This document shows, in pieces, positions 2,120 to 57,281 of a stretch of DNA of 64,000 bases. Where the stretch lies: positions 310,001 through 374,000 of the forward strand of contig NOWV01000011.1 of the NCBI GenBank assembly GCA_003344405.1, written 5' to 3'. This DNA is from Trichoplax sp. H2. Lineage: Eukaryota. The translations under genes were made by a program, and so were the position numbers. The stretch's first letter is position 1. Every line of letters begins with the position of its first letter. A model generated the notes under the pieces. That model was not told the DNA's origin and searched no databases. It saw nothing but the letters and a program-made list of their open reading frames with translations.

Positions 2120-2525
2120 ATACAGTGCTATTCACCAATCAGACTGGAGTGTACTGTATCGTGTAGTAGTATTCAACATATACTGTACCCTGGCAGATCG
2201 CGCTACAGTACCTATATCAAGATTCTTGCCATCAACACCAGCACGTTGCATTCACTCACTTGCAAGTTGTAACGCGTTACGAGACCTGGACGTAAACCGT
2301 ACAATACCAAAGGCTACTGGAAATACCAAGTACTGTACACTGTACACTGTAGCTTCCGGGAGTCCTTGACACTACTGTCCACAGTGTACAGTATAGTACA
2401 AGGAATACAGTATATAGTACTGGTCCGGATCGGTCATGGCCTTCTGAATCCTTTGCAACTGTACCGCACAGTACAGTACTGTACGGTACAGTATGTACTG
2501 TAGACGTACTACTGTAGTACTGTAG
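2120..2525. repeat. Degenerate TACAG/CTGTA pentamer array in both orientations
   Basis: For example ACTGTACCGCACAGTACAGTACTGTACGGTACAGTATGTACTGTAG at ~2458-2503, plus many TACTGTA/TACAGTA words. Confidence 0.8.
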
Positions 2526-2581: not shown

Positions 2582-2649
2582 GAATCGTGCAAATCCCACT
2601 TGGAGACTACTAAGTTACTACGAAAGGAAGAGAGAATACTGGACAGCAT

Positions 2650-5667: not shown

Positions 5668-7409
5668 GAAGTATATGATATAATTTAATAATTCATATAT
5701 ATAATTATTGATTGATTAGTGCTGAAAAAAAGTTAATATAATGTCCGTCTTAAATATGTGGTAAATACAATGCAAATTAGTAAAAAATAATTTGAACTAT
5801 TAACTCGGTATACCGCTTGTGGTCGTTGGGAGATCACATTATGCTTTATCATTACTGATACCGTTCTCCAGTTGTATTTAATCATATCTTAAAAAGCCAT
5901 TTTCACAAGAATAATAATTTCATCAATTAACTCACATACAAATATACCGAACTGATTCGAAGTATCAATATGAAATATCACTCAAATAATAACACATATA
6001 ATCGGTCGAAGATCTACTGCAGGGCTCCGATTTTACTTCGGACACAATTCAGAACGTACCGACATAGCATTCCAATTCGATATATAGGTAAAAGTATGCA
6101 AACCTGTCGGATGCCCGATCTGGTGAAAGTAATATTTTACTTTTGCAACTCAGCCTATCAGCAATTTCCTAATCCAAATTACAACTCTAGATTAATTTTG
6201 ATTACGTCGATTGCATTACTATATGAGTTGTATCTGTACTATCTATAGCGAAGAAAGTAAATATAATGTATCATTATAATTATTGATTGTACAGAGCTGC
6301 AGTAGTTTACATTCACTATGTCCGTTGCCAGATATTTCACATAGATAACGATAAGCCGAATTCTTTATTATGCGAATGTTTTATTTGTTGATGGTCACGT
6401 AAAGAATATGGTACAGTAAAACTTAAAACTGATGATGGTATTTAGCAGTCTTGGCACACTGTAGTGCACGATATACGCGTATATACAGTCTACTATGCCA
6501 ATATACGGTAAATATCTAATAGTTTTTTATATTGCCTTATAAATAAAAGTTTTAGATTTTAGCTAAAAAATTCTATTCCATTGCAAATATATAGATCTAA
6601 GATTGTAATTTGTTATGAAATGAAAAGAATAGGATTTTTCTGTCTTAGCGTTCACGATATAAACTTTTCTAAGTGGATTCGCAACCTTATTTTATATTTT
6701 ACGATTAAAATCTCGTGCATAGGTATTGACTAAAAAATTAGTATGAAAGAATAGTTAGTATACACTACCGGTATACGATATAAAAAATCTCATAAATAGA
6801 GACTCCAGTAGTAAACTCTTTTCAACGAGAATAAATATTTGATACCTGTTAAGTATACGGTCAATTCACTTAATATCAGCAGGAAAATATGGTAGACAAT
6901 ACTTTCAACAATATTTTTAACATAAGTACGATACATAAATTCACGTTCTTATAAGTATATTTATAACGCTACTAATACAGGCGAAAACGAAGAAAATGAC
7001 AATCTTACATTCTAAGAAACAGGCCAAAACTAATACAAAATTACGCCCAAAGATATGCAAATAAAGTTATAACACACGATGATTGCATTAGGTGTTGATG
7101 TATGATTGCCCCAAATAAATCGATAACAAATTGTGCGATGTGTTTTTTTAACCTAAACCAGTACTAAGACATAGGTTCAAAGTTTAATAAAAATTAGTAA
7201 AATAAACAAGAGCTATTTCCCCGTGACTTTAAAGACAGTTTAATATCTCTCAACTCCAGTATATTGTAACATTCCACTACGATGTAGTAGATAAATAAAC
7301 AACTATGTCTCGTACCTGTCACGCCGGAATGCGTTATGACAGTTGAAGAGTTAACAAAAAGGATTGACATCAAATTATCTGTTTTAGTTTGAAATTGGAA
7401 TTGGTATCG

Positions 7410-21303: not shown

Positions 21304-21731
21304 AACACTTGAATTGGTTGTCTACTTTTGCGAAATTGTGTATTTGGAAATATTATCCTTCTGCCGAGGCGATCCAAGTTCAGTATAAACTATGGCTGAG
21401 TAACGAATTAACATAACGCTTGAATTGGTTGTCTACTTTTGTAAGATTGTGTATTTGGAAATATTATCCTTCTGCCGAGGCGATCCAAGTTCAGTATAAA
21501 CTATGGCTGAGTAACGAATTTAACACTTGAATTGGTTGTCTACTTTTGTAAAATTGTGTATTTGGAAATATTATCCTTCTGCCGAGGCGATCCAAGTTCA
21601 ACATAAACTATGGCTGAGTAACGAATTTAACACTTGAATTGGTTGTCTACTTTTGTAAAATTGTGTATTTGGAAATATTATCCTTCTGCCGAGGCGATCC
21701 AAGTTCAACATGAGCTATGGCTGAGTAACGA
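21304..21731. repeat. Tandem array of 4 x ~107-bp near-identical units
   Basis: Units start at 21304, 21415, 21522 and 21629 (AACACTTGAATTGGTTGTCTACTTTTG...GCCGAGGCGATCCAAGTTCA...CTATGGCTGAGTAACGA) and differ by only a few substitutions. Confidence 0.95.
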
Positions 21732-22143
21732 CTTGACATAAGTCTTCTTGCGAGGACAGTACAGCACTGTATAATATATAATCTATCAGTCGTCAAGGTG
21801 AGCACAGTGAAGATGTATAGGACCTATAGATACAGTACAGTATTGGCGCTTGAATCAAGTATCGTCATCCAAAGCTAAGCGTACTTTCTTGGACCACACC
21901 TAATATCTTGGTCGGTTTTTCCAATTTTCCAAGATCAATAAACGATTAACTGATGCTTTTATTCAACAAAATGGCAAGCAGGCCTTTGTACCATCGTCCA
22001 AATTGGCTCATACACTACAGAATACCAAACACTATTTGATGTTCTCCATTTTCAGATGTTTATTTTTGTTTACCTGAAGCTATTGTTCACTCTGGATATT
22101 GGATAAAAGGCAACATGATGAAGACTTTTGTAAAATAATATAA

Positions 22144-22626: not shown

Positions 22627-25600
22627 ATGATGGCCGCCGACGAGCGTCCTCGAGTGCGTGTTGAGGAAACGATCAAGATTAAAATTGGTAGGTTTAGGTA
22701 TTGTTGTCTTAATTCTACCGCATATGCGGTTCTATAGGATTGTGTACCCCCCCGTATTGTATTGTCTCCTTCTCTTGCTTTTTGAACATGGCATTACAAG
22801 AGTCATAAAATATTTCGTAAAATGTATTAATTTTTCAAACTGTTCAATATCGTATCTGATCGATAAATGACTGCCTCTATCGCACGACGGTATTCTACTT
22901 TCGCTACTGTATCTTTAGCATCAGTTCAAGATAGGCAAATGATTTATTTGACGTTTCAGGATTGATTAATGAATGAAGTGTGTTTTTTAGCGGTGATCGA
23001 ACAAGAATAATTAAATGAAAAATTAATACTCCAAATTATACAACCGATTAAAAGCTTGTTATTAACAGAACACGTTGAAGAGATTAACTTAAAACGCTGA
23101 AGTATTGGATGATAACAATGACGGGGACTAGAATTGATTTTGTTTCTAAAAACGCTATCCAATACCAGTCATCACCAAATAGATACCATACTACAGTCTT
23201 TTCGTGCAGTATACCCGTACAACATGGCAATAGCAACGCTAAAATTTTTTGTCCTGTTTTTGACAAGAATGTACTTCCTATAGCAAGTAGATAAAGTAGT
23301 TATAAATTGGATAGACTAAAATGATGTCTTCCCTTCCATAGATTATTTTATTTTATTATACAGTACAGTACAGTCAATCACTCCAAGATTTACTTTTATA
23401 CAGTCATGGTGCGTTCGTTGTCACGTACTGAATCAAGAAGCCTATGATGATCATAATACTGTGTAAAGCAAGCATACTGTTATTACTGTACGTAGAAAGA
23501 CAGAACTAGATGGTAGTACTGTAGTCCGTGCGTTTGTCGTGCAAGAAATCGCCTTCTTTGCATGCGGTAGGCGAATGTTGTTGTGTAAAAATGTCATGAT
23601 AACAATTTTGCATATTTTTTTACATTGAAATTTTACTGCATCAATTTCGACTTTAGGATCGTCAAATGGATGTTCTACAGTAGTGACAGAGTAAGATGTC
23701 AGTACGTCGGCACCTAATCGATTATATTATAAACTATCGCTGCAAAACACAGTGATACTAACTAGTCGAAATAACGTTAAACCTTGAATGATGGAAATGC
23801 ATTCTGAAATTTCTTCTCATTTTTTTTTCAATGTGAAGTTAATGAAACTAGAAATTTGCTATTGAGTCATTATTAATGATTTTTACCGATCAATATCATT
23901 TTCTTGTTTATAATTCATTGTTGGTTAAACCTTGCAGGTGAAGCTAAGAATTTACCCAATAGTTCTGGTCGCAATTGCTATTGTAAAGTCTCATTAGATA
24001 ACGAACAAATTTTTCGAACAACTTCCGTAGAGAAATCGCACAGGTTAGTCGATTGATACCATATGTACACTGTACTGTGCAGCTACTTTAAAAGTCAATC
24101 TCTGTGGCACTGTCTACGGAAATCTTAATGTTACTTGCTTAATTAAACAGAATGGTTAATTTATGCAACGTACGCGAATAAAAAAAATTATGAACAGCGT
24201 AATTAATGCCGCCGCCTTCATAAACTAAGGTGCCACATGCGATTTTACCATCTAATTATACTATCCTATTTGAGTTCCATGTCGTCGTAAAAATGCTGTT
24301 ATGCCATTTTGCCTATTGGTAATTTACGTTTCTACCATATCCATGGACATGAGTCATTTATATAACCTTGTCTCAGTGTATGGTTGAACCATGGTTTAAC
24401 CAGGGACTACTAAAAGAAAGAAGGGGCTACATTAACTTTAAGTTGAAGCTAATTACTTGATCAAATACAAAGTGTACCGTACTGGATTGCGCTATGTTTT
24501 CAGCCAAAATATCATACCATAATGACGTCTGTACTGTCTCTGTCTGCCTACGTGTAATCTTTAGTCATCGCTGCGCGTAAAACAATAACTCTCATTTTAC
24601 TGGATTGTGCCATAAACTACTAGAAACAAGTACAGTAGTTCAAGACTGCGGTAGTCTAAAAATATTGTATCAGAGACATAATTGTTGACTGAAGAAAACT
24701 CAGGTATTTTCCTACAATTACTGCAAAATTTCAAAAAGTCTAGGTATTTGATTGGGATTTCACTTGGATGAGATGATTGTTAGATTCTGTACAGTATACT
24801 GTGCTATGATGTCAACGGTTGGTCAGGCATTACTAAAAGAGATCTTCGCTTAATAGTCTATAGTACACCACTTCTCATATTACCCATAACCCATACTACA
24901 CTAAAAAGGCAGTTAACATAAGCAATTTTATACAACACAGAATCAGGCAAGATCGCTTAATTTTTTAAATTGAATAAAAATTCTTGTCTACTGTCCCCTA
25001 AGAAAAGTTTGATTTAATTTTGAAGCCGAAAAGTCGACAATACCTTGAACCCCTCCAGTACCGTACAGTATCATACTGAATATTTCTTCTGCATACAGTA
25101 CAGTACTGTACACTGTAGCGGAACTGGTACCAACTACAGTACAGTACAGTACTGTAGGGTATGGGGTATTTTTGGGGAACATTAGCCCTGCCAATTTCAT
25201 TCAACTCTGCTGCCTTGACAGTAATAACCATCAAATACTCTATATTGTCGTTTAGGCTACTCATCAAGAAAAAATAGACTAACAGCATAAGGTCGCTGAC
25301 TCAGCGGCCAAGTAATAAATCGAAAAAAGCATTTTGAACATTTTATCGTAATCCCTGGTAACATGATATTGTATTGCAAACAGATCTTTTGTAATCTGAT
25401 CAGGGATATTACCAAATGTTACTAACCGTAAATAAATTTATCAAATATTTATTAAATTAAAGCATATTTTGGTCGATGCTCCTCAGCACAGTACAGTTGA
25501 ATATAGACAGTTGTATATACAGTAAGCAACAAACAAAAATCGAAATTGATTAATTAATAGTCAATGCATTCAACTGAATTATTGATAGTTTTAAGGCTTA

Positions 25601-28600
25601 AAGTCTAGTATCTACACTTGACTTTATCTATATTATACATATTGTAGAATATATTCGTACATGGACAGTAATACTGAAGCAGATTTTCAATTTAGATATT
25701 CTCGTACAGTATATGCTGTATGGAAACGTATACATTCGTATAGGTTATACCATGGTATATATATATACCATGAAATTGAGAAAAATCTTAACAGTTAGTA
25801 TAACTTATACGCGCTTTGCTAAGAGTAAAGTGGTGCTAAACGGTTCAATGCCTACAGTCAGGTATCGTTACAATTTTTACAAAATTTATGTGCTGTTTAA
25901 CAGTAAGCTATGCGTATTTCAGTTATGCCCATAGAGGTTATATGGATAAGAAAGATTAAAGTAGAACCGTAGAGATGATCAAGTTAAAAGGACCAAAATA
26001 GGCTTAAGTCTACATCATTGCCTTCCAATATCCCTACAGTACAGTAATGCACCTAACGATGGTATTCTTATTTGAAATACTAAAAAACAAGCTGTGATTT
26101 GTTTATCCTAATTCATACTTGAATTAGGATTCATTGAAAAGTTTTCCTTATTTATACGCGTAGATTGAAATTAGCTGCAATACCATTAAGCGTAATGTAT
26201 AGTGGGTATGAATCAACACCACTATAAATACAGTGACGGAATATGATTATACACTTATGTACGCGGACGTATAGTTTTATTAAACTTGCAATACACCTGC
26301 TGTATGCTAGCTCTGTCAAGATGTGTGTATCATTAGCTGCTAAAGGTTAACTTGGATTTGTTAAGTACTGCAGTTGCTAGATAAGTAAGATAGCCATATA
26401 AAAACTAGGATTAAGTAAATGAAATTTGTTGTTTTTATTGCAGTCCGTTCTATGGTGAAGAATTTGAATTTGATATACCGAGAGATTTTGGAGTGTTATC
26501 CTTCCAAATACATGAGACTGATTTGTTTGGTTTTCGTAAAGATCAAGCAATTGGCAAGGTAAGGTGTAGTCAGATACTAGTTTATCGTTAGTCAGCTTTT
26601 TTAGTAAAAGTCTAGATATATAGGACTGTCCTTTTGGATGGAAAAATCTCAAAGTAAGATCGGTATAGTATACTGTATAACAAAGCTTTCGATGCCGTTA
26701 GTACGCTTGCACATTTATGATTTTATTTATTTTACTACAATGCAACGGTAACAAATTGAGGACCTTAAAATGATGTCATAGCCTTTTGCATAGCGATCTC
26801 TTTAATAGATGCAGTATTTGCCTAACTTGATGGAAATGGGTTATTGGATCAAGTAAATAGTTATTGTTTTCGTAATGATAATTTGTTAATATGATGAGAA
26901 ACAGAAACAATTACCAAGTCATATTAATGATTAAATGTTGAATAGAAGTTGAATTTGTTCAACTAGGCAAATTTTGTTATTCTAAACACATAAACTTATT
27001 TATAATCGAGCAATTGCGTTTAATTATTTATTTAAAGAGAAGCAGATTGTAAAACTTTCGCTATCCATACTGTAATAAAAGAGAGTTATACTGTAAGAGG
27101 GATATCGCAATCTGATATTCAGCCATTTATGCTATTTTTTCTCGTTACCTCATGAATTACCTCATATAGTATGGCCAGCTTGTTTAGATAGTACTGTAAA
27201 TCAGTACCGTACGAAGATCAATTGATCTCTTATAGTAATACTCTAGAATTTCTAAATCTTTATTTTACATTATCGATGTTTTTTGGCTCTGCCATAGAGA
27301 TATCATTAACATTGCCAAATAAAATGGCAACCTTCTTGTTGTTTTTGAATTGTTATACTGTACGTAGACTATAGCTTTACACAAACAATTTAAATTTTGT
27401 AATTTAAAGGTCAATTTATTCAAGCTCTACGAGCTAAAACCAGCTACATAATACCTATATTTCAAAACTAACTTCAATTTTTAACATATAAGAAATTAAT
27501 AAGTTTTTTTATAAAAAGAAAATATACAAACTTATGTTAATTTGATCTTTCTGTAAAAAAATGTATGCTATTAAAACAGCAAGTAATTGCAAGACACGTC
27601 GATTAACCAAATAACGGGTTGCAATCTTTATTTTCGATGCGTAGTCTAAATTTATTTCGTTAGGTCGTCCTTTATCTGAAACTGTCTTAAAATATAACAC
27701 AATTTTTTATTTGTAAAGTTATGATTATATTAAATACTATGCGTTATCTTTATTGCTGTCTAATGTGATTTTGCAACAGTCTAAAAGTCGGTGATGGTCA
27801 TTCTAGACAACGTTTTAATAGTAATAACATTCTTATTTTATACTTGCATAGGTGATTATAAGACGATCTGAATTGCATACTTACAATGGGCTTGATAAAT
27901 GGCACCCTATTTTGCCAGTTGATACTGAACCTGAAGCTCAGGTTAGCATAGCCTGTCGATAAAAGGGAAATATTAGCTAATGGTATTATAGGATATTGTT
28001 AGGCATTACATGGATTCTGAAAGATACGGATGTGATTTTTTAGTACATTTTATTTTTTTTGATTTTTTTTAAATCGATGTAATCACGCTTAATACCGTTA
28101 TTTTCTTTTAAATTTTATTATAGTATTCAATGCTAGATGTTAATAAATAATATGTTACGCATGGTCAGAAAATTATTATAACGACTCAAATGGCTATTTG
28201 CTTTTTTTCACCTTAATAATCAAAGTGTATTGTAAATCTTTATAAAATATTTTTAGTACAAATATTCTACCAACTTAGCGTCAAGTTGGATGTATTTATT
28301 ACACCTTTCGATTTCTAATATTAGTTATTAATTTCTGGGTCACATAATATACTCTTAGTTGAGAATAAAAGATTCATTCACCTATCTTCTAAATTGCTTA
28401 AATAGGGTAAAATTCGGGTACGATTAAAGTTACAAGATGCATATGTGAATAAGACATGTTATTATAAATTACATGTTAAGTAAGTGTTAAATTTTTAATT
28501 TTTTGTATATCAATTTAATTTTTTTAATGATCAGAAGTAATTTTGTTACTAATCAGCGGTATATATGTATTTCACAGAGTCATAGAGGCAACAGATTTGC

Positions 28601-31600
28601 ATGCATGTCAAAGTAGTGGTACATCGGATACCTTCGCTTCTGTGAAATTAATGAACTATACGACAAAGTAGGTCGAGATGTGATGGCATTGATTTAAGAG
28701 AAGTTATAGGATATTTAATTTAATACCATAGCTTTGACAATGTTATTCTTTTCAATTGTTATCGTCAGATAAAGGCATTTATACTACCTTTTATTTTAAG
28801 GAATAGACCAGAAGTAAAGCGTACAAAAGTTAGGAAAAAGACTCTTAATCCGACATTTGACGAAGAATTTAATTTCAGTGTAAATATATTTTACATTCTA
28901 TTATCGATACATTTTAAAAGTTTTGATGTATATTAGCGATAGACATATATAGCAAAAATGTTGTAAATATTTATTATTGAAATGTATTCTTTTATCCGTA
29001 GTTATGGGATAATGATTTGTCAAATTACTGCGTCAAGTAAGAGTATATTTCTAGTTGTGGTCTTGGTGACTTGCAAATAAAATAGAAATATTGTTCCTGT
29101 ATATAATGATATCTACTTTAATCTGGTTTTAAGTTTGTACTTGTTTCTACTGTGTGCTTTTAGTATCGAGCTTTGTAATGCAAATATGATAGGGGATACA
29201 TTTATGGGCAAGGTAATAAATATCATTTAGCAAACTAACTATTTTTGAAATAGTTTTTGATCAATTCTTACTGTTGACTAATCTAGTATTTAAAAATTTT
29301 ATTACTATTGTTATTTTTGCTATCATTGATAACAGCACGGATGATAATTTCTTCCAAGACTTTTATAGAATGTTTGAAAATATGATTAAAGAATGCTATT
29401 TTAAATTAACGAAATCTAGGTTACAATACCACTTCAATCTTTGGATCTGTCGAGTAGTCACGAGGCAAGGTACGTTTCGCACTTATAACTAAAAAATTTT
29501 AATTTTTATTTAATAGTCAGTTAATTTTTCAAAATAGCTATATGCTCAGTGAAAGGGAAGGCCGACACAGTGGAAATAAAGCTGATCTAGGATCGCTTCG
29601 TCTAAAAATTAATTATGTGGAAGATTGGGTTTTTCCCTCGCGATCGTATGACCAGTTAAGAAAATTAATTGTAAATTCTATTGACTGCAATGTAAGTATA
29701 ATAAACTTTTTCGTCATCACATTGCCGGACTAATATTAATGATTACGATTCTTACTCTCAATTTGTTTCTTAAAATCAGCCGATCAACTCAAGTCCTGCC
29801 GCTGTTCTAGGTAGAATTGTTAAAGATAAGATAGACGCTGCAAAATCGTTAGTGAAGATTTTTCTCCATTACGATAAGGTAAATGGACAAGATAGTAGTT
29901 ATGTGGATAATTTTAAATTTTCTCATTACAGGAATACTTTTTATTTCGTTGTAGGTTGTAGATTTTTTAAGGTGTGTAGCCGAAAATGAAATCCGCCATA
30001 CAAGGTAAATGACCCTACACTGCAATGTATATATATACATACGATGTTGATATAGAAATTGAAGTACATCAATCACTATTCTTTTTATTTTAAACATTCT
30101 ATAGTGATCCTAATACTCTGTTTCGCGGAAATTCACTTGCTTCAAAAGCGATAGATGAATTTATGAAAATTTATGGCCAACATTACTTACATTATACCCT
30201 AAATGGCATCATAGATGAGGTCAATATCTAAATAGTGTATTGTACAGTACATGTGTAGTTTGCTAACGTGCAATATATGTATATTACAAGGACCAGTAGT
30301 AGTTAAATTGTATTAAAATAAATTTTTTTATATTTATTATCGTTACCGAAAATGCATACCAATGTAGATAATTGAAGACAAGAAACCATGTGAAATTGAT
30401 CCCTCTAAACTGAAAGATAGCGAATCTTTGGATGCTAACCTTGTAATCTTATCTTCAATTCTAGCTTGTGATTCCCTAATAAATATTCTATACGAAGAAA
30501 GTGGCATACTACTTATACTCATACGATTATTTTTATACGTGATTGCTTTAGGGGAATTTACAAGGTTATGTCGAAAGATGTTTTGTAGCTATTACTTGTT
30601 CAGCAATTCATTGTCCACCTCTTATGTGTGAACTATTTCGATATATCAAAGAAGCAGCAGTTAGACGTTTTCCAGGTTATATCATAAATTATCGCGTTTC
30701 ACTATTGATGACTATGTATTAACTTTTCTAAATTATTATCTTTAACTAATTTTAGATATTGAGGACATTTGCTTTACCTCAGTTAGCGGTTTTATTTTCC
30801 TACGTTTTTTTGCTCCGGCGTTGTTAAATCCTCGCTTGTTTCAGATGAGAGCGGATCATGGGGTATACATAAATACTAACTTTCTGAGATTATAGAGTCT
30901 ATGCAATTCTGATAACTAAGTAAATCCATTTGTGTGAACTTGGTAAAGATATTAACTTCAATCGCCTTTCTAATGTTTATAAATATTGCAGGAACCGCTA
31001 ACCTGCAGAACATTAACGTTAATTTCTAAAAGTATTCAAAATCTAGGAAATCTTGGATGTGTTCAATCTGTAAGCTGTCCTTTACTTATATTTATCAGAG
31101 TTTTACCAATTTTAAAGATACAAAATTTTTTGTAAAATATGGATTACTTTTAATTCTTATCAAAGATGAAAGAAACTTACATGGAAACTCTCAATAGCAT
31201 GTTCTTAAATGATACTCACATAGCAGCTGTGAAGAATGTAAGCACTTTGTCTAAAAAAGATTTCAGTAATGATCGTATGAGTGATATATTACTCGTGGAT
31301 TAGTTTTTAGATTTTATTTCATCTCCGCATGAATACAACGAAAATTCTGGGATGCCTTTAGTACTCAAAGAAGGGTAATGAAACATTTATTGAGTTTGAA
31401 CGTATTTCTGTGATAAATTAGAATTGATAGAATTTATCAACTTGCGATAACTTTAGAATTATGATTAAACGTGCTCAAGGAAGACGGAAAAAATTTGGTG
31501 TAAAGCCTTTCCGGAAAAGGTGTGTACCCTAGACTCTCTATGCCAGTGGCTTATTTTAAATTTTTTATATAAAAATTAATATTTTGCGTTATTTTATATT

Positions 31601-32947
31601 TTTAAGATATTTCCTGCTTACAACTGAAGAATTAAGTTATGCGAAGGAGAAAGGTCGATAACTATAATTCTAACATCATGCGAAGACGTTTCCAAAATGT
31701 TCTATTTTTCTATTTTAACTTAAATCTTATGGATTCTGTAAAGGCTCTGAAATCCTATGTCAAATTCCAAAGGAAGACATTCTTGCTGTAGAAAGAGTTG
31801 ATTATGAAGCATTTAAAATGAAACTGGTACTATAATCTGTAAAATTAAGAATATAGTATTTAGCTTGGTGTCAGTAATTAAATAAAAACTAAACATTCAC
31901 TTTTTAGATGTTCCAAATAGTACAACCGAATAGACCATTATATGTTTTAGCTAATAATAGTGTAGAAGAACGAGATTGGTGAGTGTTTAGATTCTATGGT
32001 GGAATTAGGGACGTAAACTTTTCCTATTTTACTTTTGCTGTTACTTTTTACTCAATTGAAACATTGATTTATGTGTAGGATTTATGTACTAAAGAAAATC
32101 TGTCAAAAGAACCCTAATAGATTGGAAGCTTATCACCCAGGTGCATTTGATGAAAAGAAAAACGCTTGGATATGGTACGGCTATAATTTTATTTAAGACG
32201 AAAATTTGTGTAATTGGATATTACTAATATATATATATATCGTAACAGTTGTGGAAAACCACAGGAAGTTATCGCTGGATGTACGCATGTTACAAGTATA
32301 TCTGAGTGAGCTCTCTAATGTTCTATTAGCGTTTGTAATCCTAATTTTTTGAAAATACAGTAGTACTGATATACCACGTATGATTTCATAGGGCTGACTC
32401 GCCTGATACCACTATGCATATAAAAGTTGATGTTGATCGGGAGCTAGAGAAGGTGTACACATTATTTGTAAATAAATTGGAAGATTTACAAAATCTACGG
32501 GGTAAACAATAATAGTATTATAAGATCTTTAATCAGTGTGATTATGGAATTTATTTGACAGCAAGAGCTAGCCTGTCATTTTATATCAATTGAATTGTTT
32601 ACACGAATTTATAGAAGAAGCAGCGTCTAGCTTGCAGAAAGTATCCGATTTTCAACTTTATTCGAGGAATGAATTACAAATTGAATTAACCTCCTTAAAT
32701 GATATTATCGAGTTTTGTCATCGCCATTTATCTGAGCATGAAGACAATCGAAAATTTAACAGATCAGGAAATATATCATTCAGGTTAATATTTTATTCGA
32801 TTCTTGTATGGATAGACACATTTTTAATTTAAACTTGGTGTACTAAGCAAATGTAGATCATTAATTACACTCAACTGTCTATATGCTAGATCGGGGACTA
32901 CGCAAGTTTCTGATACTTTTGGTATTGGTGATTTAAAGGTGCGCTAG
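22627..32947 (+). CDS. RASA3: GAP1-family Ras GTPase-activating protein (C2-C2-RasGAP-PH-BTK), RASA2/RASA3-like
   Basis: Exon 1 22627-22687 ([21 protein letters not shown]), exon 2 23938-24043 ([20 protein letters not shown]), exon 3 26444-26558 ([15 protein letters not shown]), exon 4 27852-27941, then about 20 small exons. These carry the arginine finger [39 protein letters not shown] motif [13 protein letters not shown] and BTK motif YHPGAF..W.CCG. Stop TAG at 32945-32947. Likely co-orthologous to RASA2 and RASA3. Confidence 0.93.
25056..25158. repeat. TACAG/CTGTA pentamer array in RasGAP intron 2
   Basis: CATACAGTACAGTACTGTACACTGTAG and CTACAGTACAGTACAGTACTGTAG. Confidence 0.8.
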
Positions 32948-33715
32948 AAAATAGAACTGAATGGATAGTTTTATTTATTATGAAGCGCGTCAAACTAAGA
33001 ATTACAAATCAACGTTTAATTTTGGTGTATCAGTAGCAGAGTATAGATCTAGGTTGATTTAATGTGGTTGCTTATTGATTTAATGATCAATATGATATTA
33101 ATTAGTTAATTGTTATGCAATATAGCGCATTGTATAACAATAAATCATTTGCTGTAACTATTAACGTCTTAATGCCCTTTTAAAATTGCTGGTAAGGAGC
33201 AAACATTTCTACCGTTACTAGCGCTACTTTTATGATATTGAAATTCTTGTATTAATGTAACATCCATGTTACTACTTTATTGAAATTGTAAATATATGCA
33301 ACTATGTTTTAACGCATCAGAGCAATGATTCTATTTCATTAAGCAATTTAACATTATCAAACAGAATTTAATGCAGATCATGTTATAATACAACAATAGA
33401 TTAAAGATTGGTACATTACAGGGTCTCATAAATTAAAATTAGATTTTCATCTATATCAATATCAAGATATTGCTTTCTGACCTTGTGCAAGGACCAAACT
33501 TGTAGACTGTGCATAAATTGTTGATATCATAATATAAAATGTGAATCGACTATCCAATGTATAAGACATTGCAAAGAATTATTAAAATTTCTTTTTATGA
33601 TATTTATCTTCCAACATTTCAACATTTTGCACATTATTTATAAACAAGATAAATGTACTAACTTAGTATTAGATCTAATGGAAAAGAGACTTAATAATAT
33701 AGAACTATAGAAATA

Positions 33716-36030
33716 TCACAAAAAGGCATTAGTAGCGCTTCGAGAAAAACGACTATCAAGCTTTTTAGCTTTATTAATAACTGAGCGACGCTGTGTCGCA
33801 TTTAAGGCACTATGATTTAAGTCTTTTTCTCTATCGAAGGGTCTCCTTTCCTTTTTCGTATCCTCTGGTTCTTCGTCCTAGTAATAATTAGAATAAATTA
33901 AGATAGTTGCAGCACTTTAAGTAATATATCAAGATATGAAATATTACTAACCCGTTTTCTTTTAACGTGAAGATCTATAAGCGACTCTTTACGGTGATGT
34001 TTCTATGAATTTAAGTTAAGCAGGTAAATCCCATTCGTTAGAATTATCTGTCCTTTATTTACTAATCTTGTGCTCTGTTAGGCTGGTAAATGTAATTAGA
34101 GAGATTAATATTAGAACTTATATATGTATAGTTACATTGTAATCATCGATCTTCCTCAATACTAGTGAATCATTATCGGATAATTTCACATCGGGTTGTA
34201 TCGGGCTGCGTTTTCTTTCTCGTTTTTCCTTTTTTAAGTATTATGAGAATGATCAAATAGCTATCATAATATTTAATAAAAACTATAAAATTATTATGAT
34301 CTTAGCGACTTTGAAATACAATTTCATATTAGTAGAGTTGGTTATTACTACGGCTATACCTTATTCATCTTTTTAGCTTTATCACTTGGAGTTTCTGTCC
34401 AAGAAGTAGGGTCATATTTGCCTACTGACTCGTTCCTACGGAATTGTCGCGGTCCTAATCCTAACATTATTAGACAAACCCAGAAAATAGAGTGAGGCAT
34501 ATCAACTTTGCTAGTACCTTCTAAAATGATTTTACCAACTTAATTTAGCCTGATCAGCTTACCAAACTGATTTCCTATACTGGCAGGCAAGTCCGTCATC
34601 CACGATTCACGCCCGCTCTTTGCCTGTCATTACCGATTTACATAAAATTAGAGTATTTGTTGTATCTATAATTATATAATGTGTTGATATTGTATTAATC
34701 ATATTACATCTAATATTAACAATGGAATGTATTATCTTTAACAATACGATAGATGTGTAATAATTTATAACTGCAATAGAGCGATAATAGTAGAATTTTT
34801 TTAGATATTAGCCCAACTGGCTCACTACCGTAAGACGTTACGTTGTAAATAACTTTTACATTTTTCGTAGAACCTTAAAATATTATAGAACAAACAACTA
34901 AGGTAGAATGAGTAGTATGTACATTATATTGCGGCAGTGTTCTATTTAAAATAAAATTACATCACCTCTTCCAAGTTAGATTGTTGTCTCGCTGCTAGAA
35001 ACTGACGTTCTCTTTTCATGGCAATATCAGTGATATCTTTCTAACATTATATACATAAATAGTGCAATACATGTATCAACTTGCAGATTTGTGTATTGTA
35101 CAAAATGATATAAGTATAAGTTAAACGGAGCTATCACTGATTACAAGCCCTAGTTTAAAAGTTCGTAAAAAGTACTGTATCACCTTGGTAATATAGAAGT
35201 ATAATTGTTACTATGCGTATCATATATTCCAAGTAGCTTCTTTAACATAACTTTATCAAGATTATTCTTTGCTTTATACTGACTTACCCGTTTCTCATTT
35301 ATCTTCTCCGGTAATGGGCCAACAAAGTCGTCATCAACAGTATCGTCATTGCTAACTATTTAGAACAATGATAGCAAAAATGATAAAGATATTACTTTAC
35401 AGCATTTCTATATCAAAATTTTATCATTTATTAACTATAGTATAAATTTCAAAGATACTTAGTTACATTAGATGTAGTAACTATTAAAACATTTTAAAAT
35501 ATTATCCTATCTTCCATATCAATTACTGTTTATATGTATATTTAATACAATATGTCTGCATTAAGATATTGGCTAATTGGTTTACTATTCTAACAGAGTT
35601 AATAAAAACAATGCAGTTAATTATATGTTTCAGTCAGTTCACCTTGATGGAGAGTGATTTCGTCTTCCTGGTTAACATTACTTTGATATGGCATGATCGG
35701 TCCAATATATTTTGATTCTTTTGATGGACTATTGTTATCAGTATTTTGATCCTGAATACTTAGAGCAAAACCTGGAGGTAATGCAGGTCCGTATTGCTGA
35801 GCCTCATTTGCTGTCTGTTCACTTTCAGGTGAATCATTTTGATTTGATGTAGAGGCTGCACTGTTGCTTGCATGTGAAGACGGTAATATTGGACCGTAAG
35901 TTGCAACCGCAGTTGTTTCTTGTTTGGTTGATTCTTTTAATGTTTGACCAGTATTAGAAGTTGGTGATGCCTCCGTGCAGCTAGGTGGTGGCAACGGTCC
36001 ATACGTTTTGGATGTCATTGACGAGGACAT
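33716..36030 (-). CDS. GPALPP1: GPALPP motifs-containing protein 1 (DUF3752-type C-terminus), about 8 coding exons
   Basis: Repeated YGPLPPP, YGPILP, YGPALPPGF, IGPIMP and VGPLP motifs. Downstream exons encode RESWMTDLP, LGPRQFRR, SWTETPSDKAKK and RRPFDREKDL...KLDSRFS. Stop TGA at 33718-33716. Confidence 0.92.
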
Positions 36031-36619
36031 AATCTCTAAATAGTGTTGTGTACCCTAGACAGAAATAAATTTATCAATAAGATACTGCTGTTTGACTTTG
36101 AACAGGTACTTTAACTTGCTGATTAATCATGATACGTTTAATGTGCCAATGGTATATTATAAAATAGTGATATAGAGTTTCAGCCATCTGTATTCAAATT
36201 GCTACTTAAGATATACTGATGTTGTCGCATTTTTTAAGGCCATGTCGATTTTACATAAGCATAATCAGGTGCATCACCGATGAGGCTTTTCAACTTTTTC
36301 TGAGCAATCATACATTACAAGATGGTAACTTGTGCATTTAATACGTTCCACTGACACCTCTTCTGTCACTACCTGTCACTATACGCGTGTATTTATAGCA
36401 ATATCGATATTAAGCAACACATTTGTCTATAATCAACCTCAATTAGCTTGATCGATGTCCGCAATCATTGCCGCCATGATTGTTTCCATTTCATCGATTG
36501 AGCAATAATTACATTTAAAAAGGATGGCAAGTTGAGTCTTTAGTAAACACTATCTTAAGATCTCTTGTTCGGACACTAAGTAGTACCAAGCACTGCCGAA
36601 CTCTCACACTACGATACGC

Positions 36620-36892
36620 GAAGGTACAGTACTGTACAGTACAGTACAGTACTGTATTGTACGCCGGTACGATTCTGAGGTACTGTACGGTACAGTGCGC
36701 AGTACTGTGAGATACAGTACTCTATACTGTAGTGAGAGTACCGTACTGTACGGTACTGTACCGAACACTTGTGCCTACTTGTACTGCGGCTGCGTCTGGA
36801 ATTTGTTGACAATAAAACAACATTGTACTGTATACTTATACAGCAAAATCAATCCTATTTTAGGAAGTAGTCTTTGGGCCATGTACTGTACG
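36620..36892. promoter_or_regulatory. Bidirectional promoter region of GPALPP1/FBXO22 filled with TACAG/CTGTA pentamers
   Basis: Lies within the 1.15-kb gap between head-to-head ATGs (36030 on -, 37185 on +). Dense array such as GGTACAGTACTGTACAGTACAGTACAGTACTGTATTGTAC, with elevated CpG. Confidence 0.65.
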
Positions 36893-37184
36893 ATTCTCGG
36901 TTTAAAGGAGAGACGTAATCGATGGTTTGTAAGATCATGAACAGCTTTGCAGATATTTAAAGCAGTTTTACACATAACGTTAATATCTGTGATTTTGAAA
37001 GGAAAGGAAACTGGAAACTTTGAAAATACGATATACAGCATCTGTTATTTTGCTAACATTTACTCAACCTGTTTACTACTGCTGTGTCATTAACGGCAAT
37101 ACAGTACATGATCAGCTAGTTGTTGTGGTTATCTTACATGCATTGTATGATCCAGTAAGTCTGTTGTAAGAAGATCGTAGAAAT

Positions 37185-38762
37185 ATGGATATAGGTAGTA
37201 CATACAGTCAGCATTTCGCACTACAATTGCCTGAGATTTTAAGCATGATCTTGTCCAAGTTGGATGCAAAATCATTATGCAATGCATCCGCTGTTTGCAA
37301 AGAATGGAATCAATTAGCTACTAAAATTTTAATGGAACGCCGTTGTTGTGCTACTTATATCGTAGAATCTCCCGACGCTATCGGTGATCTCCACCATTTT
37401 TTTCACCAGTTACCTATTGTACCCGCTGCAATCAACGTTTTTTCCACCTTTGATAAATTAAGAGATACACGAGCATTAATCTCTTGCATCAAATCGAATG
37501 TGCCTTCCAACTGTCAAATCCTCGGTTGCTCTGGCAATGGTATTGTCGGCAGCCATGAAATGGATCAAAAATCCGTTTCTTTAGAACTAGAGGAAGCTGG
37601 TAAAGCCTCGATTCTAATTATTCCTCGCATAACAGGTATCATGCTATTTACTCACCAATAGATATTATTCTGTAATCGCTTCTGATCATAAAACAATATT
37701 AATTGGTGCAGCGCTTGCTATAATAAGAATTAATTATTAACTGGGCTTGAATTTCTTTATAACCTTAAATGATAAGAATTATTTATATATTTACTAAAAA
37801 CTCACTCCATTGTATTATCTTTTATTTTGCTGATTTATATGTACTGTGGATCATAGACTATTCCCTAAAGTTATGCTCTATTCTACTAGGAGTTACAGTC
37901 AAAGCCTTTACCTTATATAAAAGTGATCTAAAACCGGAAGAAGAGGATACAGCTAAAGTATGGAAAGCTTCCATTGGAATGACTGATATAAAGGCTATCC
38001 TTTTACTAACCGATTTCGACATGCTTGAGAACGATGACTTTACAGCCTTGCAAGCTGCTTTCAAAGATGAAGAAAAATCTGCGATCGTTGGATGTCTATG
38101 CCAACCTAAAGGTGAGTTTTTTCAGAATGTTGTTATTTCACTCGTGATAATATTACTTTTTACCTTTATATAATATAATATAAAATGAAGTTCGCCTGGA
38201 TAAGCTCTGATTCAGAGATTATGTGAATACTTTTAATTATTTACCTATTTTACCGAATATAAGCTTACATCATAGCTGTATTCTAAAATTATATGTGGTA
38301 TACTTACTGACTGGTCACGATACTATTTACTCCGGTATAGCACGATTGCATTGCAATTTTCAATTTATGCGAGATTGCCGAAAAGAGCCAGCCTTGGTTG
38401 CGATGGCGATAGGCGGTGAATACATGGAAGCATCCACTGTTCTCTTATATGAGAATGATAAAAGCGACTTAGCAAACTCTATTGCTAACGTAGAAAGGCC
38501 ATCATCGATATCATATTCTCCGGATATTGTTTATATGTTTCCTTGTGTTGGTCGGGGTTATATGTATTACGGAGAGCAAAATGTCGAAAGTGGTCTGATC
38601 AGAAAAGCCTTTCCCTGTATTCATGTAATTGGTTGTTTCGGCTATGGTGAAATTTTTAATCTGAAATGTAAAGATGGCTACAGTTATTATCATAGCTACA
38701 GCACGGCTTTGTGCTTTTGCTGGCTTAAACATGACAATTATCATTCTAATTCTTCCTATTGA
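37185..38762 (+). CDS. FBXO22: F-box only protein 22 (F-box plus FIST domain), 3 exons
   Basis: Exons 37185-37635, 37890-38111 and 38341-38762. F-box LPEILSMILSKLDAKSLCNASAVCKEW; CQILGCSGNGIVG; FIST-C motif MFPCVGRGYMYYGEQNVESGLIRKAFP..IGCFGYGEI..HSYST. Confidence 0.92.
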
Positions 38763-40495
38763 TAAGAAACTTTAAATTACTAATCAATTTAATATGCTTT
38801 GGTGCGACTTGTAATATTTCATTATTGCATTATTGCTTATATCTTTGTTACTGTATTATTATTATTAATGAGGCCTTCTATCAATCTCTAAGATCTTAGC
38901 TCTAGCGTGACACCATATCGTTGCGGAATACAACCTGTCATAGTGACAAAAAATTATCTTCTGGATTGTAAATGAACTGTAAATAGCTTTATACCGGGAT
39001 CATATTACTGCCGTGAATTTTATGGCAATCTTTGATTAAATGTACAATTATTGATTTTGATCGCTATCTACGTTTCTGCGTGATCGTGACATTGTTTAAA
39101 AAATACAAGTTCCAGTTAGAGACTATGAATTATTTCACGATACAGTACAGTAACTGTCAGCTATTGCATATACTCACTGATACATGGTAATTAGTACATC
39201 ACTTTAATTTTCGATGGCAAAAATAAAGTTGAAAGATTGTTTCCTGTAGTATAATTAATGTGACCATCCTATTACGATTTGTATAGGTATACGTAGATAT
39301 CGACAGATATAATTGTTCTGGTTATCTTTATCTCATTAGCCCATCTATAATGATATTTCAATAGGGATTGTATTTTTAAGTAAAGATGGATCTGTTGTAT
39401 AACCTACCGTCTATGCGACGGAGACGACTTTAACTTCTATTGATTATACCTAAATGTTTGCTTATATAACAGGTGTCATTTTGAATATTTTTAAAATTGA
39501 ATTATCATTCACGGCTAAAAACTTTATTTGAATCTATTGAAATTACATTACTACGATAACAGATATCCTATGTAGGATTTTGTATTTTCTAACTACGTAG
39601 TTCTTTACGCATTGCTATCAAGAGATAAACAAAAGGGAGAAAGATAGGAATACCACAAATCATGAAGTACAGCTTTGAGACTTAAATCGAAATTTCCCAG
39701 AATTTATGAATTAGCTAAGCCGTGTTTCTAACAGGAGTTAGGTAGTAGTGATCCTTTGGAATGGAAATGAATAAGGAATTTTCTTACAACTATTAATCTA
39801 ACGAGGAATGCTCGAGTACATAATACAAGCACGCTTGATAATGCTATTGTTTGTCTATCTGTAATCTCTCTAACATTTTAATTAAATCATTAAAAAGTCT
39901 CTATATCGCTGCTTTGAAAGATTCAGCAGATCAAGCCAGGAAGTTATCATTTCTTTTATAACCTTTAGCGGATAAATGCCTGTCACTAATTTTTCTGCGT
40001 TAATTAATTACTGTCATCATGACTGGAAGTAGATAGGTTAGATTAAAAAATTCTAAATATTAATATTACAACATACAATATATACAGCACCAGCTAAATA
40101 AATCAAATTTTTTCGAAATGTATTAGCTGATGTTATAGTGCATTAACTTGGATCCGTATAAGAAGAGGTTAGAAGATAAACAGTATCCCGTAGCCCCATT
40201 TATTAGGTATTGCCAACTCTGTAGAGAAACCTTTTTGATTGCGAAGGTATAATCCCAATTTTGTTTATGAATCGTTAAATTACAGTATACCAATACGCAG
40301 TCATGGATGCGTAACTGGATAGCCACTGTGTAGCACGTACTGTACTTATATTTTTGAAACCTCTGTACTATGATAGTAGTACAGTAGCTTAGACCATGGC
40401 TAGAGTTCTATAGTAATGCTATTATACCACAAACAGTGTCGCGAACATGCGCAGATTTCTCCTCTAGAGATTTGAAAATTATTGAAATGAAGGAT

Positions 40496-55226: not shown

Positions 55227-57281
55227 TCTAACCAATATATAATTTTAAATTGTGTGTATATGATGTACATTAATCCTTATAGATATATGTTGATTATATA
55301 TTTATAATGTATTGATATTTTACTATGTCGAAATACGATCAAATCAATTTACTAATTAAAGTTAATTAATACTACTGAATCAATAAGTTCTCAGCAATTT
55401 GATGCATAGAACCATGTAGTCTATCATACGCTAAACAATCTTTATGAGCATATATGGCTCATTAAATACAAGTATTTAAACCACTTTTATACATGAGAAT
55501 TTAATTCTTACACATTGCAATCACAAGATTGTTGTAAAATTCTAAAATTTGTACAATTGTTTCTTGATGTTGAGGTATATAACGGCAACTAACTTTATGC
55601 CGGGCTAGAATTTATAATTATAGCAGTAGTACGGAATTTATCATATATTTCTTTTGCAATCCTTAAATTTGAAGAAAATTTTGATTTCCAAGTCATTTGA
55701 TAACATTTATATCATCGAGCATTTTACGTCTGTTTTATAATAAGAAGAATACTAACAGGCGTAAAAGAATATTTTTAATCATGTTAACTTTATATTAGAA
55801 TGAAGTTTTATTTGTACTGTTTCGAAAATTAATCATGACCTGATTCTATCGCATAAGTGGATTATGCACATAAATTTGACTTGGTTTTGTGCTAAACATT
55901 GAAAAAATTGATTGGAAAAATAAAAGTAAAACATTTGATAGAGTTTCATCAAACATAGCTATGATTTATGTCATTGATTTGATCACATGTAATCAAGATC
56001 TTCATGTTATCGAGGGTTCAGAGCCCATAACAAAGTGTGTTACTTTCGCAAGATAGTTTAAGACGATTAGTAGTACTATATCGAAGGAGTAATATTCAGG
56101 CGATAGAAGCAATAATATTGTTAAACACTTCTAAGTGATAAGAAGATATTATTAAAGAATATAGCAATGTTTCGTGGATATACAGTATATGCAAGTAATT
56201 AATGGTTGTAGTAAGAGCGGCTGTATCGTCTTTTTAGGGGTGACGACGGTCTTACAAGCCAATAGCGAAGATACTTTGTGAAATGATTCCTTGGGCTAGA
56301 TAGAAGACGATAACATTCAATTAACGGAGATATTGGCTCCATTACAATACTTGTAAGAGGTAAAAAAGATAAAGTAATAAAGGTAAAGGCGATATACAGC
56401 AGAGCTACAATTAATTAATTAATTGTAGGAGCAGTTCAGTAAAGATTTTAAAAATTGACGACGATGTTACTCCATTAAGAGGGTGTACTAGTTTACGTGT
56501 AGAAGTAATTAAAATAGTAAATGGAATAAAGTGAAAAGAGGACAGCATTCATTCAATAGTGGTGCAGTTACGTTGATATTATTAATGCTATTTTAAATGA
56601 TCCAATGAAGAAATAATTAGAGCTATACTACGGATCTACTGGCCGTAAGAATAGTATCGCAGTTTACGGCATCCATTCCTTACGAGACGGTGATGGTGAT
56701 CCTATAGCTTCAACGGAATATTAATTACTGCCCTAATTGAAATATTAATCCCGCTAAGCCTTACCCTTAGATCCTATATTTTAGGTAATATTATGAAAAT
56801 ATGTCGGATGTCTGATCTGGTGGGATCAATGATTTAGTTCATACCGGCAAGCAAGCCCTTTAATATGCAATAAACTAATAATTAATCGGACATGCACTCT
56901 AATGAAGGACATTAAAATCAGTTCCAGAACGTTATCCTTGAACTGGTAAGTTAACTTTTGAAAGAACGTGCAGATGTCAAGTTATTAGTGAAGCAAGGTA
57001 TGTTGGTACATCATGCAGTTACTATTCTTGGCTTTCAATATTTACAATGTTGATCTTCGACCGCCCGCAGAACATCGTACTGTACAATACTGACGTTGGA
57101 GGGTAGCAGATGTTAATTTACGGTTTACCAATCTAGCCCACCATCTCCGTCACATATATACTGTATATATCCGATACTAAAGGTAAAATTTCAATTTAAT
57201 TTGCTAGCAATATTGTTCGGGTAAAGTAAGGCTGAATTCTTGTTTGGGTAAGGAAGGAAGGCTAATTTCCATCATCGTATC

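What the first reader, a model, noticed from the sequence alone, without database searches (positions are those of the whole stretch)
36620..36892. TACAG/CTGTA pentamer arrays mark gene starts: candidate lineage-specific promoter code
Seen: the GPALPP1/FBXO22 head-to-head gap is tiled with TACAG and CTGTA pentamers in both orientations, forming palindromic junctions (CAGTACTG, CTGTACAG) and mixed with CpGs. The same word clusters recur near 2120-2525, 21756-21843, 23358-23525, 25056-25158, 40325-40387 and 57078-57166. These positions are at or near the 5' ends of most genes in the window (not obviously ACE), and only scattered single copies occur elsewhere. Frequent orientation switching is not what simple slippage produces. 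Inference: a multivalent binding platform for a sequence-specific factor that keeps promoters open or clusters them, functionally analogous to GAGA repeats or CpG islands. I do not know of a description of this motif class, but cannot confirm novelty without a search.
Basis: partly seen in the sequence, partly recalled or inferred. Interest (0 to 1): 0.75.

Follow-up and report, generated by a model that had tools for sequence, protein, structure and literature searches.

The report
Known Trichoplax ACAGT promoter repeat array
This is one of the five-base ACAGT repeat clusters already reported in front of genes of the tiny animal Trichoplax; the only open points are how the clusters grow, since their units point in random directions and appear as clean inserts at TA sites, and whether a protein actually reads them.

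Summary
Real but already published. The window is Trichoplax DNA. The array between divergent GPALPP1-like and FBXO22 genes holds 13 TAC[A/T]GTA units in 273 bp; simulations reach at most 6. Wang et al. 2010 (PMC2871265) described ACAGT as this animal's dominant microsatellite, 54% within 1 kb upstream of genes, and proposed a factor-binding role. Their table lists a 19-bp run upstream of the FBXO22 orthologue, matching this array. Kim 2025 and a 2026 Hi-C model link placozoan promoter motifs to chromatin hubs and folding. My genome sample agrees: arrays precede 36 of 65 Ras/UBC/proteasome genes, 2 of 31 GPCR genes, 26 of 120 random windows. Less explained: orientation is random (169 same, 153 switched), and paralogues differ by exact CWGTA inserts at bare TA sites, the shape of a Tc1/mariner excision footprint; no source element was found. 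The scan reported this motif and the footprint idea before on other pieces of this genome.

The parts
36625..36890 (.). Focal (TA-CWG)n array, 13 TAC[A/T]GTA units plus 3 TAC[C/G]GTA; dense part 36625-36760
36634..36652 (+). Perfect 19-bp ACAGT run; corresponds to the 19-bp run listed upstream of gene 55220 in Wang 2010 supplement 5
33719..36609 (-). GPALPP1-like gene (DUF3752, GPALPP motif); spliced RNA contigs, RNA cover appears to reach at least 36609 (weak: contigs cannot show a start)
36890..39079 (+). FBXO22 gene, ATG 37185; RNA contigs 37131-39079, a further contig probably from about 36890 (weak)
37100..37106 (+). Single unit in the FBXO22 5' region; runs X18 and X13 carry a second allele with a net 4-base loss here, compatible with absence of one CAGTA module (letters not seen)
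   Evidence: table 4
2121..2524 (.). Second strong array region (12 units); neighbouring genes not identified
25064..25156 (.). Array of 8 units in intron 3 of the C2-domain (RasGAP-like, name inferred) gene; other strains' contigs are 10 and 20 bases longer across it
23359..23525 (.). Small cluster (4 units) in intron 2 of the same gene
21757..21843 (.). Weak cluster (2 units) about 500 bp upstream of that gene's RNA contig start
40281..40996 (.). Two loose triplets upstream of a TPR gene (candidate ATG 41169)
57078..57166 (.). Two units about 120-200 bp upstream of a candidate ATG near 57282; not a cluster by my threshold

Best explanation
The array is a member of the known Trichoplax ACAGT repeat (shown; about 0.97 on its own). 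Its unit TA-C[A/T]G-TA is self-complementary except at the centre. Arrays grow mainly by exact addition of CAGTA or CTGTA modules at TA dinucleotides beside existing units, in either orientation, with some ordinary slippage (pattern shown in paralogue pairs). The most likely writer is local templated copying from either strand of a nearby self-complementary array during break repair or replication (inferred). Arrays build up in open DNA at and near promoters of broadly expressed genes (shown by proxy). There they most likely act as an orientation-independent, multivalent landing pad for a placozoan architectural or nucleosome-displacing factor, which fits the published promoter hubs (inferred; no factor known).
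For: Identity. Promoter bias: array (4 or more units in 300 bp) within 3 kb upstream in 12 of 13 proteasome, 16 of 34 Ras-family and 8 of 18 UBC genes, vs 2 of 31 GPCR genes and 26 of 120 background windows (pooled 36 of 65; p 2e-6 vs GPCR, 7e-6 vs background). In 1.5-kb windows, 21 of 67 upstream vs 2 of 67 intragenic. ACWGT-array words top the discriminative 10- and 12-mers. Growth: 31 of 60 clean paralogue indels of 3-16 bp are 5, 10 or 15 bp (p 3e-7); 11 of 13 five-base indels are TA-anchored CWGTA; 8 events sit at a TA that is not a duplicated unit. The filled copy is the minority in 4 of 4 families with 3 or more copies. All 8 lie within about 70 bp of another unit, against 27% of bare TA sites, and 3 of 8 add two units. 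Centre A/T flips in aligned units are 6 of 80 vs 1.5% background (p 0.002); the strand folds back (z -4.0). Function: non-centre positions of in-array units differ in 2 of 330 comparisons vs 5.8% overall. PMC12817080 reports repeating ACAGT as a motif that changes predicted T. adhaerens contact maps; PMC12221973 reports a motif at housekeeping promoter hubs.
Against: Templated copying through a 2-bp TA overlap should also copy other TA-nnn-TA words, which are 407 of 600 such sites in the aligned DNA, yet 6 of 6 non-duplication five-base events were CWG (p 0.001). 29 of 65 housekeeping-type genes lack an array within 3 kb, and intronic arrays exist. The low in-array divergence may reflect homogenisation or alignment register, not selection. 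The letters of the Kim 2025 motif were not visible, and PMC12817080 ties ACGG, not ACAGT, to the transposon motif. Gene starts were approximated by the first Pfam match, not by mapped TSSs. The paralogue set (24 kb aligned) is small and enriched for array-rich loci.
Confidence: 0.45

Rival explanations
1. Stacked Tc1/mariner excision footprints. An element with CAG(TG) ends inserts at TA in open promoter DNA and excises, leaving TA-CAG-TA or TA-CTG-TA; repeated cycles build the arrays, which may since have been co-opted.
For: TACAGTA and TACTGTA are the two canonical Sleeping Beauty footprints (10.1101/659086). Exact inserts at bare TA, gain polarity, CWG specificity and 50:50 orientation all follow. 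The second module is TA-CA[G/C]TG-TA (53 vs 15 for the slippage-equivalent TACACAGTA, each 8 expected; p 4e-6), which extends the same end by two bases. Tc1/pogo-family genes exist in the genome.
Against: No TA|CAG...CTG|TA element with arms matching at 21 of 26 bases in 1.0 Mb (0 hits). The Tc1-like gene L154 has an in-frame stop, a single-copy 3' end and no inverted repeats; L158 is frameshifted; L151-153, L155 and L157 show no convincing inverted repeats. Non-canonical footprints, over half in that preprint's cell assays, are not enriched (o/e 0.7-1.0). Wang 2010 found 0.13% TEs and none active. The excess implies on the order of 10^5 events (about 780 per 400 kb). 3 of 8 events are double units.
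Confidence: 0.2
2. Neutral by-product. Whatever writes the modules works best in nucleosome-free DNA, so arrays mark active promoters but nothing reads them.
For: Arrays are length-variable between strains (net +5, +10, +20 and -16 across four clusters) and between paralogues. Many housekeeping-type genes lack them. Central and flanking substitutions inside arrays occur at similar rates, so there is no clear recognition signature.
Against: In-array units are about tenfold less diverged than their surroundings. In silico insertion changes predicted contact maps (PMC12817080), though a model can learn a mere correlate.
Confidence: 0.22
3. Relics of Mutator transposon terminal inverted repeats inserted at promoters, as proposed for the GP1 motif by Kim et al. 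2025.
For: PMC12221973 reports a motif in Mutator TIR consensus sequences and Mutator density at housekeeping promoters in four placozoans. Some arrays flank dispersed repeats shared between loci (L002/L116/L081, L077/L078). Wang 2010 lists 6 degenerate MuDR fragments.
Against: The focal inverted repeats consist only of the repeat units. Any two such arrays look like TIRs, and the published annotation was automatic (EDTA). No MULE transposase match in G000 (PF10551 0 candidates; PF20700 0 of 4 with a silent control). Single modules arrive at bare TA without any element.
Confidence: 0.08
4. Ordinary slippage microsatellite, with point mutation flipping units and selection keeping arrays at promoters.
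For: 5 of the 11 module-type five-base indels are perfect tandem duplications. Spacing peaks at 5, 10 and 15 bp.
Against: Orientation of neighbours is independent (169 same vs 153 switched, p 0.40), while other substitutions run at about 2% per position. Modules appear at TA sites with no unit to slip on.
Confidence: 0.05

Closest known systems
(ACAGT)n pentanucleotide microsatellite of Trichoplax adhaerens (Wang, Zhang, Meyer, Bao 2010, Biol Direct 5:18, PMC2871265; parts 1-2 of 4 of the text read, supplements searched by term)
   Same: Same organism group and unit, same upstream bias (54% within 1 kb, 85% within 5 kb), enrichment at translation genes, and a proposed factor-binding role. Supplement 5 lists a 19-bp run 511 bp upstream of gene 55220, the FBXO22 orthologue; here a 19-bp run lies 533 bp from the ATG.
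   Different: The parts read treat it as a perfect one-strand microsatellite. They do not mention the palindromic core, random orientation, or insertion at bare TA sites.
Placozoan loop-anchor / GP1 promoter-hub motif annotated in Mutator TIRs (Kim et al. 2025, Nature, PMC12221973; abstract, passages of sections 8 and 43, sections 10, 24, 31 read)
   Same: A motif at housekeeping promoters that form 3D hubs, shared across four placozoans. My top housekeeping-upstream words are ACWGT arrays, and ACGGACGG is nearly absent (5 copies in 65 upstream regions), so it is probably the same motif.
   Different: The logo is in a figure and its letters were not seen. The Mutator origin is not supported by my tests.
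Repeating ACAGT and ACGG motifs found by the Chimaera Hi-C model in T. adhaerens (PMC12817080; passages and section 61 read)
   Same: Names ACAGT repeats as a sequence determinant of predicted chromatin folding.
   Different: In silico only; assigns the transposon link to ACGG.
Canonical Sleeping Beauty / Tc1-family excision footprint (bioRxiv 10.1101/659086; passages read)
   Same: Identical heptamers TACAGTA and TACTGTA, arising at TA in both forms.
   Different: No source element or intact enzyme found; non-canonical footprints are not enriched; stacked arrays of this scale are not described in the passages read.
CERP2/CELE2 MITE-derived promoters bound by HIM-17 in Caenorhabditis (PMC9757741; passages read)
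   Same: Precedent for a repeat-derived motif seeding a third of a promoter class and read by a transposase-related factor.
   Different: There the elements and the factor are known and the motif is a spaced pair inside a MITE; here neither is known.

Membership tests
Trichoplax (ACAGT)n microsatellite (Wang 2010) | Trichoplax genome | tested here: met
   FBXO22 exon 98% identical to two Trichoplax proteins
Trichoplax (ACAGT)n microsatellite (Wang 2010) | Perfect ACAGT repeat longer than 12 bp | tested here: met
   19 bp at 36634-36652
Trichoplax (ACAGT)n microsatellite (Wang 2010) | Upstream of a gene; listed in the paper's table | tested here: met
   533 bp to FBXO22 ATG here; row 1890 of supplement 5 gives 19 bp, 511 bp from gene 55220
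Placozoan GP1 / loop-anchor motif (Kim 2025) | Motif letters match the published logo | not testable with these tools
   Logo and Supplementary Data 1 not readable as text; 2 of 6 supplement files are pictures
Placozoan GP1 / loop-anchor motif (Kim 2025) | Enriched at housekeeping promoters, rare at cell-type genes | tested here: met
   By proxy: 36 of 65 Ras/UBC/proteasome vs 2 of 31 GPCR genes
Placozoan GP1 / loop-anchor motif (Kim 2025) | Overlap with ATAC, H3K4me3 and Micro-C anchors | not testable with these tools
   Only assembled contigs were served
Mutator/MULE element | Terminal inverted repeats with family-specific sequence | tested here: not met
   The 5 longest of 18 inverted pairs at the focal site are built from the repeat units; masked flanks of L001 match none of L002-L010
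Mutator/MULE element | MULE transposase in the genome | tested here: inconclusive
   0 matches for PF10551 (control rang) and PF20700 (control silent); exon-wise search can miss split genes
Mutator/MULE element | 8-11 bp target-site duplication (recalled) | not tested
   No element boundary could be defined
Tc1/mariner excision footprint | TA-CAG-TA or TA-CTG-TA, both forms common | tested here: met
Tc1/mariner excision footprint | Appears as a gain at a bare TA | tested here: met
   8 events; filled copy in the minority in 4 of 4 multi-copy families
Tc1/mariner excision footprint | Source element with CAG ends and TA duplication | tested here: not met
   0 hits in 1.0 Mb, about 1% of the genome; none around 8 transposase-like loci
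Tc1/mariner excision footprint | Intact transposase able to write it | tested here: inconclusive
   L154 has a stop, L158 a frameshift; L151 is an open 549-aa frame with two aspartates and a changed third residue; PF01359 0 of 3 with silent control
Tc1/mariner excision footprint | Accompanying non-canonical footprints | tested here: not met
   TACATA, TACTA, TACGTA, TATA o/e 0.7-1.0; none among 11 three- and four-base indels
CpG island | CpG o/e above a depleted genome background | tested here: not met
   Focal 0.89, arrays 0.49, background 0.92
GAGA-type factor-bound repeat | A sequence-specific factor binds the repeat | not testable with these tools
   No binding data available

The most novel reading that the evidence does not exclude
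Placozoan promoters are being written, module by module, by a dedicated TA-targeting activity (a cryptic or domesticated Tc1/pogo-type transposase system, or an unknown precise insertion process) that leaves CAGTA/CTGTA in either orientation in open chromatin. The stacked scars have been co-opted as the genome's architectural code for promoter hubs, and the published Mutator TIR label is a misreading of pairs of self-complementary arrays.
Probability: 0.15. Interest if true: 0.85.

Novelty: already known. Interest (0 to 1): 0.22.

Why it matters
The repeat and its promoter association are in print, so the finding itself adds little. What remains useful: the loop-forming factor of non-bilaterian animals is unknown (PMC12221973 discussion), and this array class is the obvious bait for finding it. 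The growth pattern (exact five-base gains at TA in random orientation) is not slippage. If confirmed genome-wide it points to an undescribed mutational process that builds promoters, and it questions the Mutator annotation of the placozoan hub motif.

Tried and rejected
CpG-island analogy: rejected on composition. Structured RNA: 0 Rfam matches at gathering score in the window. Coding: ORFs across the array are low-complexity by-products of the repeat. Shared unique flanks among the ten best array loci: none for the focal locus. ACGG repeats as the main promoter word: ACGGACGG occurs 5 times in 65 housekeeping upstream regions and 0 times in 120 background windows. Telomerase-like addition: considered and dropped because placozoan telomeres are recalled as TTAGGG (not tested). 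A possible Tc1 right end after the L154 stop codon: single copy in the genome; no full-length Trichoplax-like version among 99 longer hits, best 53%. Depth peaks and the 25117-36630 'joint' are repeat cross-mapping, since they also appear in DNA runs. RNA contig ends near 36609 and 36890 are only a weak hint of transcript starts. Letter-level literature searches missed Wang 2010 because I searched TACAGTA-type words; the lead came. Searches for other treatments of placozoan Mutator motifs returned only PMC12221973 and PMC12817080 as relevant; none was aimed specifically at a footprint reading of ACAGT, so I do not claim that reading is absent from print. Rows dropped: L095 (near-duplicate of L088), L099 (shares upstream with L071), L033 and L064 (truncated); L098 (truncated). 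GPCRs were 32 hand-picked high-ranking hits of 147 listed, mostly one per contig; Ras 35 of the N-terminal matches among 108 rows.

Full report
Organism and locus. The window is 32% GC with no CpG depletion. The ORF at 37185 is 98% identical to FBXO22 proteins labelled Trichoplax sp. H2 and T. adhaerens TRIADDRAFT_55220. The minus-strand neighbour carries DUF3752 and a GPALPP motif (the name GPALPP1 for this domain is recalled). Spliced RNA contigs from two studies support both genes. The array lies in the gap between their 5' ends.

Observation. 36620-36892 holds 13 TAC[A/T]GTA heptamers. Markov simulations of the window reach 4-5 per 273 bp, and random placement of the same 116 heptamers reaches 6. 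The heptamer is the top over-represented 7-mer in the window (116 vs 26) and 5.5-fold enriched in 400 kb taken at fixed positions of 38 large contigs (954 vs 175). That sample holds 40 arrays of 4 or more units, median 188 bp, or roughly 9,500 per genome. 23358 and 25056 are in introns 2 and 3 of a C2-domain gene transcribed from about 22320. CpG is not enriched: o/e is 0.89 here, 0.49 over arrays, 0.92 in background.

Grammar. The unit is AC-W-GT at 5-bp period, an odd palindrome, so 'orientation' is the A/T choice at the centre. Adjacent units agree 169 times and switch 153 times (p 0.40). Between two perfect units, other substitutions occur at about 2% per position, so the mix cannot come from point mutation on a slipped run. 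A second module, TA-CA[G/C]TG-TA, is also an odd palindrome and outnumbers the slippage-equivalent TACACAGTA 53 to 15.

Promoter test. I anchored genes at their most 5' Pfam match and fetched 3 kb upstream and 2 kb downstream. An array lies upstream of 12 of 13 proteasome, 16 of 34 Ras-family and 8 of 18 UBC genes, but only 2 of 31 rhodopsin-type GPCR genes and 26 of 120 background windows (pooled 36 of 65; p 2e-6 and 7e-6, four rows dropped as listed). In 1.5-kb windows the count is 21 of 67 upstream vs 2 of 67 inside genes. UBC alone is not significant at this threshold (p 0.07), nearly half of housekeeping-type genes lack an array, and anchors are not mapped TSSs.

What is in print. Wang et al. 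2010 (PMC2871265; parts 1-2 of 4 read) report ACAGT as 78% of pentanucleotide repeats, 54% within 1 kb upstream of genes, enriched at translation genes, and suggest a factor-binding role. Their supplement 5 lists a 19-bp run 511 bp upstream of gene 55220; the window has a perfect 19-bp run at 36634-36652, 533 bp from the orthologous ATG. So this very array has been tabulated. Kim et al. 2025 (PMC12221973; passages and sections 10, 24, 31) describe housekeeping promoter hubs with a motif also found in Mutator TIRs, and leave open domestication versus targeted insertion. The letters are in figures and picture supplements I could not read. A Hi-C model paper (PMC12817080, section 61) names repeating ACAGT and ACGG in T. 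adhaerens and ties ACGG to the transposon. ACGGACGG is almost absent from my promoter sample, so I think the hub motif is the ACWGT array, but this is inference. The lead to Wang 2010 and to the footprint idea came from earlier scan notes on other pieces of this genome; I checked both.

How arrays grow. In 70 paralogous pairs (24 kb aligned) among my loci there are 120 clean indels; 31 of the 60 sized 3-16 bp are 5, 10 or 15 bp (p 3e-7). Eleven of 13 five-base indels are TA-anchored CWGTA: 5 perfect duplications and 6 not. Eight events (5 single, 3 double) sit at a TA that offers no unit to slip on. In the four families with three or more copies the filled copy is the minority (1 of 3, 1 of 5, 1 of 3, 1 of 4), which indicates gain. 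All eight lie within about 70 bp of another unit (seven measured, L019 by inspection) against 27% of bare TAs. Aligned unit centres flip A/T in 6 of 80 cases vs 1.5% background, and non-centre positions in arrays differ in 2 of 330 vs 5.8%. Other strains' contigs differ by net +5, +10, +20 and -16 bases across window clusters (letters not seen). The set is small and partly chosen for array richness.

Origin models. TACAGTA and TACTGTA are the canonical Sleeping Beauty footprints (10.1101/659086, passages), which explains TA anchoring, CWG specificity and even orientation. Against it: no CAG-ended inverted-repeat element in 1.0 Mb; the Tc1-like gene has a stop and the DD37D-like gene a frameshift; the pogo-like frames are without inverted repeats; non-canonical footprints are not enriched; and on the order of 10^5 events would be needed in a genome with few TEs. 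Local templated copying from either strand of a self-complementary array (fold-back z -4.0) explains proximity, double units and centre flips without an element, but does not by itself explain why other TA-nnn-TA words are not copied. I rate it ahead, modestly. Mutator TIR relics are least supported at this site: the inverted repeats are the units themselves and no MULE transposase was found (the second with a silent control).

Function. Shown: upstream bias at broadly expressed genes. Inferred: a strand-symmetric, multivalent site suits a shared bidirectional promoter and hub formation, and low in-array divergence hints at constraint. Not shown: any binder. A neutral mark of open chromatin remains possible.

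Verdict. A real feature, already known as a class and even as a tabulated locus. Interest 0.22. The residual value is the non-slippage growth pattern and the doubt it casts on the Mutator label, both of which the scan has raised before on other DNA.

Noticed in passing
window 21304-21731: Four copies of a 107-bp unit at 95% identity, just upstream of the weak cluster and the C2-domain gene.
   Followed up: no
window 32888-33876: One RNA contig (X18 record 17) runs from the plus-strand C2-domain gene into the minus-strand GPALPP1-like gene, suggesting overlapping 3' ends of convergent genes.
   Followed up: no
window 24287-25323: RNA-run contigs (X19) cover part of intron 3 next to the 25064 array; pre-mRNA, DNA carry-over or a nested transcript.
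   Followed up: no
window 7368-13062: Two tandem ACE (Peptidase_M2) units, the first with a 368-codon opening exon; no array upstream.
   Followed up: partly
window 2614-3128 and 218-2116: GC-richer ORF fragments on both sides of the 2121-2524 array with no Pfam match at cut-off; genes unidentified.
   Followed up: partly
L154:1378-2541 (G000:C323): Tc1-like transposase gene with a probable intron, D-D-E motifs present, one in-frame stop, no inverted repeats, single-copy 3' end; best database hit 53%.
   Followed up: yes
L151, L152, L153 (G000:C276, C248, C339), L155, L157, L158: Open pogo/CENP-B-like frames (549, 419, 426 aa) and IS630/Tc1-like frames without inverted repeats, mostly with changed catalytic motifs; L158 is DD37D-like with a frameshift. 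Candidate domesticated DNA-binding proteins.
   Followed up: partly
L077:921-1124 and L078:1067-1276: A 210-bp, 79% identical segment flanked by ACWGT units lies upstream of two different proteasome genes on different contigs.
   Followed up: partly
L120/L146/L134, L002/L116/L081, L005/L010, L033/L117: Dispersed 150-490 bp repeat families at 80-90% identity, several embedded in arrays; possible unrecognised non-autonomous elements.
   Followed up: partly
L111-L150: TACGCGTA is enriched (25 vs 4 expected) in the background sample, a separate palindrome.
   Followed up: no
L088 and L095 (G000:C515, C808): Two UBC loci are 92-96% identical over more than 2 kb: recent duplicate or unmerged haplotypes.
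   Followed up: no
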